Assembly (NCBI GenBank): GCA_965214245.1
Contig: CBDCBL010000005.1
Location: 28,657 to 92,656 of the forward strand
From: Acidobacteriota bacterium
GTDB taxonomy: Bacteria; Acidobacteriota; UBA890
Direction of reading: 5' to 3'
DNA: 64,000 nucleotides
Shown one piece after another: positions 26,258-31,130 of this stretch (the first letter of the stretch is position 1; each line of letters begins with the position of its first letter). The position numbers and the translations under genes were made by a program. The notes beneath the pieces are model-generated. The model was not told where the DNA came from, made no database searches, and worked only from the letters and a program-made list of their open reading frames with translations.

Positions 26258-27426
26258 GTGACTGCAGCCACGCGCAAGAAACCCACTAAAGCGGAGATTG
26301 CCGCGCGCGACGCCGCCGTCGCCGAAGCGGGAGGTGCGGCACCGCCGCAGACCGCCGGTGCGGGCTTCGCTTCTCTCGTTGGCCACGAAGGTCCGGTGCA
26401 AGCGCTGCACCGCGCCGTCACCCGCAACCGCCTGCCGCACGCCATCCTGCTGCACGGGCCGTCGGGCGTCGGCAAGGCGACCTGCGCCGGCATCCTGGCG
26501 CAGGCACTCAACTGCGAGATCTCTGATTTCAAGGACGCGTGCGGCTCGTGCGTATCGTGCCGCAAGGTATCTCGTGGTCTGCACCCCGATGTGCTGTGGG
26601 TGGAGCCGCTGACCGGGAAGATCCGCATTGCACAGGTGGCGGTACGCAGCAGCTCGCGAACCGCCGGGCCCGAGCCACCGCATGAGCCCATCGTCAGCTG
26701 GATCGGATACAGGCCCTACGAAGGTACTCGGCGAGTCGTAGTCATCGACGACGCCGACGCCATGACTACACAATCGCAAAACGCGCTGCTCAAGACGCTC
26801 GAGGAACCACCGGGCTCGTTGCTGCTGCTGCTCGTCACGGCCAGGCCGGGCTCGCTGCTGTCGACGATACGCTCGCGCTGTCAGCCATTGCGCTTCCAGC
26901 CGCTTCCACTCAACCTGCTGAGAGCCCATCTCGAGGAAGCCGAGGGATTGCCGAGCGATGAGGCGCGGCTGCGCGCGGCGCTGGCGCCGGGCAGCGTCGG
27001 CAGGGCGATGAGCCTGGATATCGAGGAATACACGGCCCTGCGCGACGTCGCCGAGTCCGCTCTCGAAGACACCGTGCAAGGCGGTGCGGCATTGCTCGCC
27101 GCCGCCGAAACTCTCCTCGCCGCCGGCGTCGGCGAGCGCAAGATCGAGCAGGCGTCGTCGGCGATCGGCGCGGTGCGCGACATCCTGCGCGATCTGTTGG
27201 TGCTGAACGCCGGCAACGACGTGAACCTGGTGGTCAACCTCGACCGTGCTTCCGAGTGGGCTCCGTGGGCCGATACGCTGGATCCGGAGTCGATTGTCAC
27301 GGCCATCGACGCCGTGCAACGCGCCGAGGACAAGCTGCACGGCGCCCTGCAGCCCAACGCTCGCCTGACGGTCGAGGAAGTGCTCATCGGCGCCGGCGCC
27401 GCGATGCGCCGCGGCGCGGTGGCCTG

Positions 27427-27427
<1 letters not shown>
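26258..27427 (+). CDS. holB: DNA polymerase III subunit delta'
   Basis: HAILLHGPSGVGK, CGSCVSC, HPDV, QNALLKTLEEPP, TIRSRC. Confidence 0.92.
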
Positions 27428-28377
<950 letters not shown>

Positions 28378-28511
28378 TGTCCTGAGTCAGAAGCTCGTTC
28401 ACAGCAACGGGCGATCGTCTCGAGGATTCTGTCGTGCGCACCGCTGAGCGTGAGACGTTCTCCCAGCGGGGAAATTGCGGATCTTTTCGGTTCCGAGGGT
28501 TTTTCCCCTGA

Positions 28512-28664
28512 GCCGTCCGTGGGTGGTATAGGCCCTCTCAGGTCCTTCCGCTACCCTGAAACCGCGAGGGGAAATTATGGATCCCTTCGGGTTCTCTTTG
28601 AAACCTCGCGGTTGCAGGTGCCCCACGGATCCCCCCGAGAGGGCCTATACCACCCACGGACGGC
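28512..28664 (+). repeat. Rod-like hairpin element, copy A (structured ncRNA or REP/MITE-like)
   Basis: Perfect 28-bp inverted repeat (28512-28539 / 28637-28664) enclosing nested inner stems and a cTTCGg loop. Confidence 0.8.
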
Positions 28665-28948
28665 GCGAGGTCGGTGTACGACCGTCGACCGGATCGGCCG
28701 GTGACTGCTATGACAACGCGATGTGCGAGCTTCTTCGCGACGCTCGAGTGCGAGCTCCTGAACCGCCAGCGGTTCAGGAGCCAGGCTGAGGCTCGCATAG
28801 CCGTCTTCGAGTTCATCGAGGGCTTTTACAATCCCCACCGCCGTCACTCAGCCCTCGACTACGAGTCGCCTGTAAATTACGAGAGGAGGTGGGATCAGGT
28901 CGCTTGAAATGGGGACGGTCAATTGTCCACCAAAGCGGGGCAACTCCA
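28665..28948 (+). mobile_element. IS3-family remnant (3' end of OrfB with a frameshift, plus right IR)
   Basis: GDCYDNAMCE/(S)FFATLECEL...IEGFYNPHRRHSALDYESP; end TGTCCACCAAAGCGGGGCAACTCCA resembles an IS3 right end. Confidence 0.85.
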
Positions 28949-28987
28949 GGTAGTCCGTGCTCCCTGGATCCGAGGCCGAAGTCAGGC

Positions 28988-29143
28988 GCCGGGAGCGGGT
29001 GGTATAGGCCCGGTTCGGGGGGACCTGTGGGGGACCCCATCAGCCGAGCGGATTACAAAAAAACCCGAAGGGGTCCGCAATTTACCCGCTCGGTTGAAGG
29101 GGCACGGGAGGACCGGAGAGAGCCTATACCACCCGCTCCCGGC
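28988..29143 (-). repeat. Rod-like hairpin element, copy B (inverted relative to A)
   Basis: 22-bp perfect IR (28988-29009 / 29122-29143) with the same GGTGGTATAGGC core and inner architecture as copy A. Confidence 0.8.
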
Positions 29144-29270
29144 TCAGGGGAAGAACCCTCGAAACCGGAAGGGCCCGCGATGTCCCCTCGCGTTTGCAGG
29201 GTAGCGGAAGGACCTGAGGGACCCCCCGCCCCCGCTCCCCCGCTGGCGAAAACGCTACGAGCAAGCCGTG

Positions 29271-29729
29271 TCATCGTCGCCGCAATTCCTGCTGGATATC
29301 GCGCTCCACCGCGTCGCGCTTTTTCTGCTCGCGCTTGTCGTAGGAGCGCTTGCCCTTGCCCACGGCGAGCTCGACCTTGGCCCAGCCGCCGCGGAAATAG
29401 ATCCTCAGCGGCACCAAAGTAAACCCGCGCTCGACGATCTTGCTGCGCAACTTGTCGATTTCGCGGCGGTTCAGCAATAGCTTGCGCGGACGCTCGGGGT
29501 CGTGCTGGTTATGGGGCCCGGCCGGCCCGTACGGACCAATGTGACAGTTACGCAGAACGACGTTGGCGCCCTCGATGCTGGCGTAAGCGTCTTTGAGGTT
29601 GGCGCGGCCCTCGCGCAGCGCCTTGACCTCGGAGCCCAGCAGCGACATGCCGGCCTCCAGCTTGTCGATGATCTCGTAGTCGTAGCGCGCCTTGCGGTTG
29701 ACGGTAACGACCTTCTCGTTGTCGCTCAT
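29271..29729 (-). CDS. smpB: SsrA-binding protein
   Basis: NRKARYDY, EAGMSLLGSEVKALR, RKLLLNRREI, GKGKRSYDKR. Confidence 0.98.
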   Translation of the reverse strand: MSDNEKVVTVNRKARYDYEIIDKLEAGMSLLGSEVKALREGRANLKDAYASIEGANVVLRNCHIGPYGPAGPHNQHDPERPRKLLLNRREIDKLRSKIVERGFTLVPLRIYFRGGWAKVELAVGKGKRSYDKREQKKRDAVERDIQQELRRR

Positions 29730-29784
29730 GGCTGTTTGGTCGCGGCGTGCTCCGCCGCTGCGCCGGTGCCCGACAGGTTTCTGT

Positions 29785-29832
29785 TAAGCAGGATGCTGAA
29801 GAACTCCCGGGAGCTCTTCAGCACCCTGTCAA
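29785..29832. repeat. 48-bp palindromic repeat, copy 2
   Basis: TAAGCAGGATGCTGAAGAACTCCCGGGAGCTCTTCAGCACCCTGTCAA; overlaps the TGA stop of the nucleotide-sugar dehydrogenase. Confidence 0.8.
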
Positions 29833-31130
29833 ATGCGGACGATGTGCGCGTCGTCGTGCCCTGCGGTGACGTTGCGCGTATCGACGATCAGCTTGGATGC
29901 CTCGACGATCGCCGGCCAATCGAAGGCGGTGTGATCGGTGCAGACAACAACGCAATCGTAGTCGGCGCATTGCTCCGGGCCGCCATCTGTCGATTTCAAC
30001 GGCTCATCGAAACCCTCGACGACCTCGGCAACGTGCGGATCGTTGAACTCGACCTCGGCGCCCCGCGCCGCCAACAGACGAATGATATCGAGCGCCGGGG
30101 ATTCCCGTACGTCGTCGATATCGCGTTTGTAGGCGACGCCCAGCACCAGGATTCGGCTGCCGTTGACACTCTTCTTGTTCTCGTTGAGCGCGTCCGCCAC
30201 CTTATGAACCACGTGTTCGGGCATGCCGGCGTTGATCTCGCTGGCAAGCTCCACGAGTCGGGCCTGGTAGTCGAGCATGCGGACCTTCCAGGTCAGGTAG
30301 TGCGGATCCACCGGAATGCAGTGTCCGCCGAGTCCGGGCCCCGGATAGAACGGCATGTAGCCGAACGGTTTGGTGGCGGCGGCATCGATTACGTCCCAGG
30401 TGTCGATTTCCAGGCGATCACACATCATCGCGACCTCGTTGACCAGCGCGATGTTCACCGAACGGAACGTGTTCTCGAGCAGCTTGACCATTTCCGCGGC
30501 GCGGCAAGAAGACACCAGGTGCACCGTGTCGACGATGGTCTCGTAAAACGCCGTGGCGACCTGGGAGCACGTCGGAGTGTACCCGCCGACGATCTTGGGC
30601 GTGTCGGTGAGACCGTATTCGGAGTTTCCCGGATCTATTCGTTCCGGAGAGAAGGCCAGAAAGAAGTCCTCGCCGGCAACGGCGCCGTTGGCCGACAGCC
30701 GCGGCAACAGGATTTCCTCGGTGGTACCGGGATACGTCGTGCTCTCCATGACCACAAGCATGCCGGCGTGGAAATGCTCGACGAGCTTGTCGGTCGCCGC
30801 CAGGATGTACGACACGTCGGGGTCGCGCGTCTTGCTCAGCGGCGTCGGCACGCAAATAACGACCGCGTCCAGCCCGGCGATGGCGCCCATGTCGGTGCTC
30901 GCCGACAGCCGCCCGGCCGAGACCTGCTCGCCGACCTCGGCGTCGCTGACATCGCCGATGTAGGAGGTACCGGCGTTGATCTCGCCAACCCGCTGTTCGT
31001 TGATATCCAGACCGGTAACCTTGAATCCGGCCTCCGCGAAGGCAACGGCGAGGGGCACACCGACGTAGCCCATTCCCATTACGCCGACATGTAGCGACCG
31101 TTCTTCGATTCGATCGAGCAGTTCTTGCAA
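29829..31130 (-). CDS. Nucleotide-sugar dehydrogenase (UDP-GlcNAc 6-dehydrogenase WbpA/WecC family)
   Basis: GMGYVG, ICVPTP, FSPERIDPGN, GPGLGGHCIPVDP, DVRESP; start uncertain (TTG at 31130 assumed). Confidence 0.92.
   Translation of the reverse strand: MQELLDRIEERSLHVGVMGMGYVGVPLAVAFAEAGFKVTGLDINEQRVGEINAGTSYIGDVSDAEVGEQVSAGRLSASTDMGAIAGLDAVVICVPTPLSKTRDPDVSYILAATDKLVEHFHAGMLVVMESTTYPGTTEEILLPRLSANGAVAGEDFFLAFSPERIDPGNSEYGLTDTPKIVGGYTPTCSQVATAFYETIVDTVHLVSSCRAAEMVKLLENTFRSVNIALVNEVAMMCDRLEIDTWDVIDAAATKPFGYMPFYPGPGLGGHCIPVDPHYLTWKVRMLDYQARLVELASEINAGMPEHVVHKVADALNENKKSVNGSRILVLGVAYKRDIDDVRESPALDIIRLLAARGAEVEFNDPHVAEVVEGFDEPLKSTDGGPEQCADYDCVVVCTDHTAFDWPAIVEASKLIVDTRNVTAGHDDAHIVRI

What the first reader, a model, noticed from the sequence alone, without database searches (positions are those of the whole stretch)
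28460..29225. Pair of ~155-nt rod-shaped elements with compensatory base changes and cUUCGg loops
Seen: copy A (28512-28664, +) and copy B (28988-29143, -) share GGTGGTATAGGC...GCCTATACCACC arms. They differ by compensatory pairs in the outer stem (GTCCGT/ACGGAC vs GGGAGC/GCTCCC) and the inner stem (CCGCGAGG/CCTCGCGG vs CCGAGCGG/CCGCTCGG). Both have C-rich internal bubbles and a C-TTCG-G apex. Both are preceded by a related hairpin ending in CGAGGGTT(T/C)TTCCCCTGA, and a third partial unit occurs at ~29182-29218. Inference: structure rather than sequence is conserved, pointing to an unrecognised structured ncRNA or a hairpin-type mobile repeat family. I could not match it to a known class.
Basis: partly seen in the sequence, partly recalled or inferred. 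Interest (0 to 1): 0.75.

Follow-up and report, generated by a model that had tools for sequence, protein, structure and literature searches.

The report
Palindromic hairpin repeat family in Acidobacteriota
The two 155-base rods are copies of a non-coding, hairpin-forming repeat that has spread through this bacterial lineage and forms the ends of larger mobile palindromes, so they are selfish DNA of a broadly known kind and not a new RNA gene.

Summary
Copy A (28512-28664, +) and copy B (28988-29143, -) are near-perfect 153/156-nt hairpins (DNA fold z -11.3 and -8.3) with real compensatory changes.

They are not a unique pair. The genome holds 16 places with the rod or pieces of it, 10 of them full length. 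Each rod sits in a mosaic repeat of leader (TTTTTCCCCTGA), rod and conserved tail.

- **Pairing:** 15 of 47 pairs covary (0 of 500 shuffles reach this). G:T and A:C mismatches are equally common, so neither strand is favoured as an RNA.
- **Orthologous site:** the sister species G001 has no rods between pdxA and smpB. It has a different palindromic repeat there.
- **Second genus:** a covariance model found 18 homologous rods in G004. They are inward-pointing ends of a 1.17-kb non-coding giant palindrome, which is absent from 3 of 3 orthologous sites in congeners.
- **Known classes:** there is no Rfam match, no Y1/RAYT transposase, no parent IS and no match in the plasmid or phage collections.

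Verdict: a lineage-restricted, REPIN/MITE-like palindromic mobile repeat. The window pair is a decayed inverted-pair element cut by an IS3 relic. Its transposase and target duplication are unknown.

The parts
27256..28377 (+). pdxA gene (context). Its stop codon lies 134 nt upstream of rod A, in the same direction.
   Evidence: Pfam PdxA, E 8.8e-77; ORF list.
28462..28493 (+). Remnant of the inner left half and apex of an alpha-type rod (CCCAGCGGGGAAATTGCGGATCTTTTCGGTTC).
   Evidence: Direct repeat D3: 28468-28490 against 28568-28590, 83%; fold.
28494..28511 (+). Leader CGAGGGTTTTTCCCCTGA. This conserved module precedes the 5' end of the rod at 15 of the 16 places.
   Evidence: Flank listing and alignment. 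The 16-nt leader-junction motif occurs 15 times with up to 2 mismatches; 13 of these lie at rods and 2 elsewhere.
28512..28664 (+). Rod A, 153 nt. It is the alpha subtype with type-1 outer stem (GTCCGT/ACGGAC).
   Evidence: covariance model hit of 162 bits.
28667..28948 (+). Relic of an IS3-family insertion sequence: its terminal 282 bp, with the C-terminal piece of the DDE transposase ORF (28674-28907) and the IS end ...GGGGCAACTCCA. It is only 84% identical to the active IS of this genome.
   Evidence: BLAST to the 1254-bp IS; Pfam rve_2 and rve_3; plasmid hits annotated 'IS3 family transposase'.
28949..28987 (-). Remnant of the conserved tail that follows rod B on the - strand (GCGCCTGACTTCGGCCTCGGATCCAGGGAGCACGGACTACC), cut off by the IS3 end.
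   Evidence: Composite BLAST covers positions 18-232; flank reading; alignment of tails.
28988..29143 (-). Rod B, 156 nt. It is the beta subtype with type-2 outer stem (GGGAGC/GCTCCC).
   Evidence: covariance model hit of 181 bits.
29144..29161 (-). Leader of rod B (CGAGGGTTCTTCCCCTGA on the - strand).
29162..29218 (-). Third, partial unit. It is the left half of an alpha-type rod from CTCAGGTCC to the apex, read on the - strand. It is not the right half of a + strand rod.
   Evidence: Inverted repeat I2. The bubble sequence CAGGGTAGCGGAAGGACCTGAG is the reverse complement of the left bubble.
29271..29729 (-). smpB gene (context). Its stop codon lies 128 nt upstream of rod B, in the same direction.
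   Evidence: Pfam SmpB, E 2.3e-53.

Best explanation
Rods A and B are two diverged copies (alpha and beta subtypes) of a non-coding, hairpin-forming DNA module. The module belongs to a lineage-restricted family of non-autonomous mobile palindromic elements. Earlier notes of this scan call the genome an uncultured Acidobacteriota.

The basic unit is leader, rod, then tail. Two such units facing each other, with the rods' 5' ends outward, make a larger palindrome. That palindrome is intact in the related genus G004, where it is 1.17 kb long and non-coding. The window pair between the convergent pdxA and smpB genes is a decayed element of this kind. An IS3-type insertion sequence landed in its centre, and the centre was then mostly deleted.

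**Shown:**
- The family exists.
- Pairing is conserved through compensatory change.
- Neither strand is favoured.
- The element is present in some species and absent at the same site in others.
- Rods always point inward in pairs.
- There is no Y1 transposase in this genome.

**Inferred:**
- The hairpin matters at the DNA level. It would be a folded single strand or cruciform that an unidentified recombinase or transposase recognises, probably through the conserved unpaired C-rich motifs.
- Compensatory changes are kept because copies that fold are the copies that multiply, as proposed for REPINs.
- Gene conversion between copies also reshuffles subtypes.
- Some copies may secondarily act as 3' hairpins or terminators of the gene upstream.
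For: **Family in this genome**
- BLAST found 16 places in the 4.64-Mb genome. Ten are full-length rods. The others are a 66-nt internally deleted hairpin, stubs, and copies cut by insertion sequences.
- All 24 matches to the 24-nt arm (up to 5 mismatches) lie inside rods.
- The rod is one module of a roughly 430-nt mosaic of leader, rod and tail.

**Pairing is conserved**
- On the 10 full rods, 95.1% of cells pair and 15 of 47 pairs change on both sides. 0 of 500 shuffles reach this, and structures slid by 1-3 columns pair in only 32-47% of cells.

**No strand preference**
- G:U pairs number 33 on the canonical strand and 31 on the reverse strand in each strand's own best fold.
- Across 23 rods there are 30 G:T and 29 A:C mismatches.

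**Mobility and turnover**
- In the same-genus genome G001 the pdxA-smpB spacer is about 130 nt with no rods.
- At the one locus shared with G001 the flanks are 88-92% identical. The rod there is alpha type with mismatched arms in G001 and beta type in G000, which looks like a conversion patch.

**Second genus**
- The covariance model hit 3 of 41 genomes: G000, G001 and G004.
- The 18 rods in G004 comprise 7 inward-pointing pairs and 4 singles.
- Six full 1.17-kb copies are 91-94% alike, while their own two arms are only 79-83% complementary. The whole palindrome is therefore what gets copied.
- The element is absent at 3 of 3 orthologous sites in G009 and G011.
- Between the genus consensuses 18 of 47 pairs differ on both sides, yet the bubble motifs are kept.
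- All 12 pairs seen (4 in G000, 1 in G001, 7 in G004) point inward.

**Precedent**
- REPIN hairpins show the same compensatory pattern (PMC3116915, passages read).
Against: - No target-site duplication could be defined.
- No transposase or parent element with these ends was found in G000 or G004.
- Copy number is low, and copies are 71-89% alike, so there is no sign of recent movement in G000.
- The centres of the four G000 pairs are not homologous to one another. That they are decayed single elements rests on analogy with G004.
- Only two orthologous comparisons with G001 were informative out of 8 loci tried.
- The conserved unpaired motifs and the long persistence across two genera would also fit a host function.
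- 8 of 16 places lie just downstream of a gene in the same direction, which is compatible with a role in transcripts.
Confidence: 0.7

Rival explanations
1. The rods are genes or cis-elements for a structured RNA, for example a 3'-UTR stabiliser or terminator, or a small-RNA family. On this reading the covariation reflects selection on RNA folding.
For: - Covariation is strong.
- The apex is a cUUCGg-type loop.
- In beta copies the apex hairpin is followed by a T-run on the canonical strand, which the scan reports as terminator-like at 29076-29061.
- 8 of 16 places lie 32-134 nt downstream of a gene in the same direction.
- One contig from an RNA library runs from smpB into the first 21 nt of rod B. 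This is weak: contigs carry no strand information, and DNA in the library cannot be excluded.
Against: - There is no Rfam match at E up to 10 in the window region or E up to 1 in three other loci.
- G:T and A:C mismatches are equally frequent, and both strands fold equally well.
- 6 of 16 places sit beside a divergent gene start.
- Many copies are truncated, deleted or cut by insertion sequences.
- The rods are absent at the orthologous pdxA-smpB site of G001.
- In G004 the rods are ends of a 1.17-kb palindrome that comes and goes between species.
Confidence: 0.1
2. The rods are host-maintained structural DNA sites in the manner of BIME/REP elements: binding sites for a nucleoid, gyrase or recombination protein. 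On this reading they are no longer mobile, and they are retained because they organise DNA or insulate convergent genes.
For: - The unpaired motifs (GGTCCyyCCG on the left; CCCCnCnGrTCCnCCCG on the right) are conserved between two genera while the outer stems are replaced.
- Alpha-like and beta-like subtypes exist in both genera.
- The C10 pair is kept at the same locus in G000 and G001.
- The organisation is a mosaic, like BIMEs.
Against: - Copy number is low and differs between species.
- The element is absent from 3 of 3 orthologous sites in the congeners of G004 and from the pdxA-smpB site of G001.
- Many copies are broken.
- No binding protein is known or testable here.
Confidence: 0.12
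3. Only the inner body of the rod is mobile, and it inserts into the loop of pre-existing short palindromes. The variable but self-complementary outer stems would then be the two halves of different targets, not compensatory evolution.
For: - Three outer-stem variants in G000 and a fourth in G004 surround a much better conserved body.
- A 66-nt copy at G000:C6:127083-127148 consists of little more than the outer stem.
Against: - The outer-stem variants are homologous and differ by point changes, not by unrelated sequences.
- The leader just outside the stem is conserved among copies, so the stem is inside the repeated unit.
- The 66-nt copy keeps the TCCTCCCG bubble motif. It is explained by deletion between the two direct GGTCCyCCCG motifs.
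- Two copies have mismatched arms, as expected from conversion and not from a target.
Confidence: 0.05

Closest known systems
REPINs (REP doublets forming hairpins) mobilised by RAYT transposases
   Same: - Both are non-coding, intergenic long hairpins made of two conserved inverted ends and a spacer.
- Compensatory changes across the hairpin are common in both (PMC3116915, passages read).
- Both leave singlet and truncated remnants.
- Both are proposed to act through single-stranded DNA.
   Different: - No Y1/RAYT gene (PF01797) was found in this 95.4%-complete genome.
- The ends are not GTAG- or CGTC-tagged REPs. That criterion comes from the abstract of PMC3733652 in the listing.
- The rods are larger (153-156 nt) and far fewer (about 16 places).
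- They carry conserved asymmetric C-rich bubbles.
- They are themselves modules of larger palindromes.
Bacterial MITEs such as Correia/NEMIS, ERIC/IRU and RUP (named from my own knowledge; no paper read here)
   Same: - Both are 100-170-nt imperfect palindromes in intergenic DNA.
- Both occur next to gene ends.
- Both have truncated variants.
- Both differ in presence between related genomes.
   Different: - No target-site duplication was found.
- No parent insertion sequence with matching ends was found.
- Complementarity runs the whole length, not just the termini.
- Pairing is kept through compensatory change.
BIMEs (bacterial interspersed mosaic elements)
   Same: Both are mosaics of palindromic units with other conserved motifs, in alternating orientations, and both are hit by insertion sequences. 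PMC1525189 and PMC2817692 were seen only as abstracts in the listing.
   Different: The units here are about five times longer than REPs, copy number is low, and no Y1 transposase is present.
Integron attC sites
   Same: Both are imperfect palindromes whose fold, more than their sequence, is conserved. Both have conserved unpaired bases that make the two strands unequal, and both often lie just 3' of a gene. These attC features are recalled from my own knowledge.
   Different: - The rod arms have no RYYYAAC / GTTRRRY core sites (read).
- The copies are dispersed singly or as inverted pairs, not as cassette arrays.
- No integron integrase was looked for.
Foldback (FB) elements of eukaryotes (recalled; compared only with the 1.17-kb G004 form)
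   Same: Both are long, non-coding, modular elements that are almost entirely one large inverted repeat.
   Different: This element is bacterial. There is no known coding partner, and the mechanism is unknown. The one literature search for bacterial foldback-type elements listed none among the 12 of 76 papers shown.

Membership tests
REPIN/RAYT system | Two conserved inverted ends and a spacer that fold into one long hairpin, with compensatory changes | tested here: met
   Folds. 15 of 47 pairs changed on both sides, 0 of 500 shuffles.
REPIN/RAYT system | Each end holds a short REP palindrome with a GTAG or CGTC tag | tested here: not met
   Read from the alignment. There is no GTAG. CGTC occurs only in the minority type-1 arm (GCCGTCCG).
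REPIN/RAYT system | A cognate Y1 (RAYT) transposase gene in the genome | tested here: not met
   PF01797 gave 0 matches in G000 (95.4% complete), while it was found in 6 of 14 control genomes.
MITE | Short, non-coding, with terminal inverted repeats | tested here: met
   Rods are 153-156 nt with 24-31-nt complementary ends. The ORFs across them lie on both strands and are symmetric.
MITE | Target-site duplication flanking each copy | tested here: inconclusive
   No direct repeat is seen at rod or composite ends. Empty sites in congeners are only 75-79% identical, too diverged to place the junction.
MITE | A parent insertion sequence with the same ends | tested here: not met
   24 of 24 arm matches lie in rods. 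No ORF-bearing copy exists in G004. No neighbouring protein is shared between G000 and G004 rod loci.
MITE | Presence or absence at orthologous sites of related genomes | tested here: met
   The rods are absent from the pdxA-smpB site in G001. The G004 element is absent at 3 of 3 sites in G009 and G011.
Integron attC | R''/R' core sites (RYYYAAC ... GTTRRRY) at the ends of the palindrome | tested here: not met
   The arms read GCCGGGAGCGGGTGGTATAGGCCC / GGGCCTATACCACCCGCTCCCGGC, with no AAC/GTT cores. The motif definition is recalled.
Integron attC | Arrays of cassettes next to an integron integrase | tested here: not met
   Copies are dispersed over 5 contigs as singles or inverted pairs. The integrase itself was not searched for.
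Any Rfam RNA family | A match at or near the family's gathering score | tested here: not met
   Window 27500-30500 at E up to 10 and three other loci at E up to 1 gave only sub-threshold miRNA or sRNA hairpin hits.
Intrinsic terminator | A G+C-rich stem-loop directly followed by a T-run on the transcribed strand | tested here: inconclusive
   The apex hairpin of rod B plus TTTTTTT scores as terminator-like. One site was found against 1.2 expected in shuffles, and the full rod is not followed by a T-run.

The most novel reading that the evidence does not exclude
The rods are the recognition modules of an undescribed class of bacterial foldback-type mobile element. This would be a non-coding giant palindrome of about 1.2 kb with two inward-pointing 155-nt hairpins. 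Their conserved unpaired C-rich motifs would be read, on folded single-stranded or cruciform DNA, by an enzyme that is not a Y1/RAYT transposase. Pairing of the arms would be enforced by the mechanism of movement itself.
Probability: 0.2. Interest if true: 0.7.

Novelty: new variant of a known kind. Interest (0 to 1): 0.42.

Why it matters
The case shows that strong covariation and a stable rod-like fold do not by themselves indicate an RNA gene. Palindromic mobile DNA gives the same signal, and the symmetric wobble count is a cheap way to tell the two apart.

The family itself is moderately unusual. Its hairpins are long, with conserved unpaired motifs. They persist as alpha and beta subtypes in two genera, and they form the ends of kilobase-sized non-coding palindromes with no RAYT and no recognisable transposase. 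Long palindromes are generally thought to be unstable in bacteria (from my own knowledge). How these are tolerated and moved is therefore a small open question, and the question is testable.

For annotation, the rods mark intergenic sites that attract insertion sequences and that break short-read assemblies.

Tried and rejected
- **Rfam scans** gave nothing above threshold.
- **Exact-pattern scans.** Both-arms pattern in genome contigs: 0 hits. A 20-nt body motif in genome contigs: 2 loci, one of which is G001's own contig and the other a chance match. The same motif in metagenome contigs: 5 loci, all chance matches.
- **Plasmid and phage blastn.** Only the IS3 fragment matched plasmids. The rods matched nothing in either collection, and the G004 element, searched against plasmids only, also matched nothing.
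- **Flank searches in G001** for six more loci. The flanks were missing or the contig ended early, because G001 is 68% complete in 560 contigs. These searches were uninformative.
- **Split-rod idea.** I asked whether the third partial unit and the pre-hairpin are the two halves of one older rod split at its apex. This is rejected: the unit at 29162-29218 carries the left-arm bubble on the - strand, so it is an inverted left half, not a right half.
- **IS256 link.** An IS256-type transposase lies between the rods both at G000:C10 and in one G004 copy. This is rejected as a partner: in G000 it is one of at least 25 near-identical IS copies scattered over the genome, and the two proteins are only 31% identical.
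- **Shared neighbour genes** between G000 and G004 rod loci: none at E 1e-8.
- **Target-site duplication:** not resolved.
- **RNA evidence.** One 250-nt contig from an RNA library (run X16) covers 29123-29165 and 29205-29410. A second touches only the IS3 fragment. No strand, level or ends can be read from contigs, so this is neither for nor against transcription.
- **Short-read contigs** of three DNA runs break inside the rods. The lack of a bridging contig is not informative.
- **Earlier notes of this scan.** No note matched the rod by sequence or lay near it.
- **Not seen.** Supplementary files of papers were closed and were not consulted. Supplements of the REPIN papers may list element families that I could not check.

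Full report
**What is in the window.** Rod A (28512-28664, +) and rod B (28988-29143, canonical on the - strand) are 153 and 156 nt. Their outer 31 nt are 97% and 87% self-complementary. Both have the CCCTTCGGG apex. Both are preceded on their own strand by CGAGGGTT(T/C)TTCCCCTGA, at 28494-28511 and 29144-29161. A third, partial unit lies at about 29162-29218.

As RNA the rods fold at -99 to -109 kcal/mol on either strand. As single-stranded DNA the z-scores are -11.3 and -8.3, and 0 of 200 shuffles fold as well.

The flanking genes are pdxA (27256-28377, +) and smpB (29271-29729, -), so the whole block fills a convergent spacer of 893 nt. Between the rods lies the terminal 282 bp of an IS3-family element (28667-28948). 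It carries an rve-domain ORF fragment and is only 84% identical to the IS3-type element active in this genome. Contigs from three independent DNA runs reproduce the junctions 27900-28560, 28728-29015/29031 and 29123-29700.

**A dispersed family, not a unique pair.** BLAST of the region against the window's own 4.64-Mb, 10-contig genome found 16 places. Ten are full-length rods. The others are:
- a 66-nt hairpin that lost its interior between two direct GGTCCyCCCG motifs (G000:C6:127083-127148);
- two stubs;
- three copies cut by other elements.

All 24 matches to the 24-nt arm, allowing 5 mismatches, lie in these rods. No longer element in this genome shares the ends.

The rod is one module of a roughly 430-nt mosaic: the leader, the rod, and a conserved tail. 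The last ~120 nt of the tail is a separate repeat with 30 or more copies of its own.

By a GC3-based ORF reading, the leader side lies 32-134 nt from a gene end. At 8 of 16 places that gene is upstream and co-directional. At 6 of 16 it is a divergent gene start. Two places are unresolved (with for A and C10:672).

**Covariation is real but says nothing for RNA.** On the 10 full rods (nine from G000, one from G001), 95.1% of cells pair and 15 of 47 pairs change on both sides. 0 of 500 column shuffles reach this, and structures slid by 1-3 columns pair in only 32-47% of cells.
- Some compensated changes are private to single copies (C8:426677 and C10:672652).
- Two copies (C8:405716 and G001:C147) have a type-1 left arm facing a type-2 right arm, so pairing is not always kept.

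The test that separates RNA from DNA comes out flat. In each strand's own best fold there are 33 G:U pairs on the canonical strand and 31 on the reverse. On a model-based alignment of 23 rods there are 30 G:T and 29 A:C mismatches. REPIN hairpins, which are mobile DNA, show the same compensatory pattern (PMC3116915, passages read).

**Comparison with the sister species.** BLAST found the rod in 1 of 60 relatives, the same-genus genome G001, which is 68% complete.

G001's copy pair is orthologous to the G000 pair at C10:666658/672652. The flanks are 88-92% identical. The rod interior, however, is alpha type with chimeric arms in G001 and beta type in G000. I read this as a gene-conversion patch. 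In G000, 5.8 kb lie between those two rods. In G001 only 343 nt lie there.

At the window's own locus, two G001 contigs overlap by 50 nt and give a pdxA-smpB spacer of about 130 nt without any rod. That spacer is instead a member of a different ~125-nt palindromic family, which also has about seven near-full-length copies in G000. Six further flank searches in G001 were uninformative.

**A second genus shows the larger unit.** A covariance model built from the 10 rods hit 3 of 41 genomes: G000, G001 and G004. G004 is a 5.9-Mb, 3-contig genome of the same family but another genus.

Its 18 rods score 62-74 bits and comprise 7 pairs and 4 singles. Every pair has the canonical 5' ends outward. The pairs bound a 1.17-kb element that is one giant imperfect palindrome without a credible ORF.

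G004 holds:
- six full copies;
- four copies with one rod;
- two copies without rods that carry a different terminal module;
- one copy split by a 3.6-kb insertion;
- two fragments.

Full copies are 91-94% alike in the same orientation. A copy's own arms are only 79-83% complementary. The asymmetries are therefore inherited, and the whole palindrome is what gets copied.

At 3 of 3 loci tested, the congeners G009 or G011 have both flanks 1-126 nt apart and no element.

The outer stem of the G004 rods has a quite different sequence but still pairs. 18 of 47 pairs differ on both sides between the genus consensuses. The unpaired motifs are kept (GGTCCyyCCG on the left; CCCCnCnGrTCCnCCCG on the right), and alpha-like and beta-like subtypes occur in both genera.

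All 12 pairs seen in the three genomes point inward. I therefore read the window's A/B pair as a decayed element of this type. This step is by analogy, because the centres of the four G000 pairs are not homologous to each other.

**What it is not.**
- There is no Rfam family match.
- There is no Y1/RAYT transposase in the genome.
- The arms have no attC core sites (read).
- The rods match nothing in the plasmid or phage collections.
- No neighbouring protein is shared between G000 and G004 rod loci.
- The IS256-type gene found between rods in both genera is one of at least 25 scattered copies in G000 and is not a partner.
- No target-site duplication could be fixed, because the empty sites are only 75-79% identical.

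**Mechanism, with its status.**
- *Shown:* a repeat family with conserved self-pairing, no strand preference, gain or loss between species, and a fixed inward orientation in pairs.
- *Inferred:* the hairpin acts as folded DNA during copying or movement. The conserved bubbles are protein contacts. Compensated variants survive because only folding copies multiply. Conversion between copies shuffles subtypes.
- *Unknown:* the enzyme and the insertion chemistry.

A secondary role as a 3' hairpin or terminator for some upstream genes is possible. The apex hairpin plus T-run scores as terminator-like, and one RNA-library contig runs from smpB into rod B. Neither point is more than a hint.

**Novelty.** This is a new variant of a known kind: bacterial non-autonomous palindromic repeats of the REPIN, MITE and BIME type. 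The unusual points are:
- the length of the hairpin;
- the conserved asymmetric bubbles;
- the kilobase-sized non-coding palindromes built from them;
- the lack of a RAYT or any recognisable transposase.

Earlier notes of this scan describe other MITE families in the same genome and call it an uncultured Acidobacteriota. I did not test that label, and none of those notes covers this family. Two literature searches listed no description of such an element. They cover open-access papers only, and I saw listings only.

Noticed in passing
G000:C9:1167508-1168762, and about 33 other places (none intact in the window; relic at window 28667-28948): An IS3-family insertion sequence of 1254 bp is present in 16 full copies and 11 copies that share the same 214-bp internal deletion, all over 98% identical. 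Three of about 34 places lie inside a rod or its tail, always with the same IS end facing the rod, which suggests a preference for these palindromes.
   Followed up: partly
G000:C10:671083-672452, and 25 or more other places: An IS256-family insertion sequence of about 1370 bp is present in at least 25 copies at over 99% identity. Together with the IS3 element this shows a genome in an active IS expansion.
   Followed up: partly
G000, e.g. C9:1344129-1343983, C10:1354197-1354315, C9:740858-740978: The last module of the rod's tail (CTGTGGGAAAAGTGGGCAAGGAAGACGCGGAACGCGACTTCCGGAGGGGG...GGGTATTCAAAC...GGAGCGTTCCCC) is an independent repeat with 30 or more copies. It is often followed by a variable number of CACCTACAAAGCGCCC units. 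Its nature is not worked out.
   Followed up: partly
G001 pdxA-smpB spacer (contigs C350/C299); G000:C8:564989-565118, C10:863331-863453, C6:41989-42107, C5:115886-116011; array at G000:C5:113407-114116: A second rod-shaped palindromic family of about 125 nt (outer stem GCGCGAGCGCGAGGGCGTGCGA, RNA fold -105 kcal/mol) fills the orthologous spacer in the sister species. In G000 it has about seven near-full-length copies plus a tandem array with a 128-nt period.
   Followed up: partly
L111 (G004:C1:271166-272003) and L112 (G004:C1:5663189-5664018): Two copies of the G004 element's 830-nt core have no rods. They are bounded instead by another inverted module (gcacgaacc...ggatttctcatatgcgcaaagcacc...). 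The end modules of these palindromes are therefore interchangeable.
   Followed up: no
window 29166-29204: A contig from an RNA-library run (X16) matches smpB and the leader of rod B but skips 39 nt inside the third partial unit. A related strain probably carries a shorter version of that remnant.
   Followed up: no
L046:12595-13015, L048:2016-2436, L049:2645-3065 (metagenome contigs, chance pattern hits): Three unrelated metagenome contigs share a conserved leader (GGGATGGAGTAGCGGCAGGGCTCG ... GGCCCTCTCAGGTCCTTCCGGC) about 90 nt upstream of an ORF starting MGKNEPLSRSEDYADRRLRL. It looks like a conserved 5' leader or riboswitch-like element and is unrelated to the rods.
   Followed up: no
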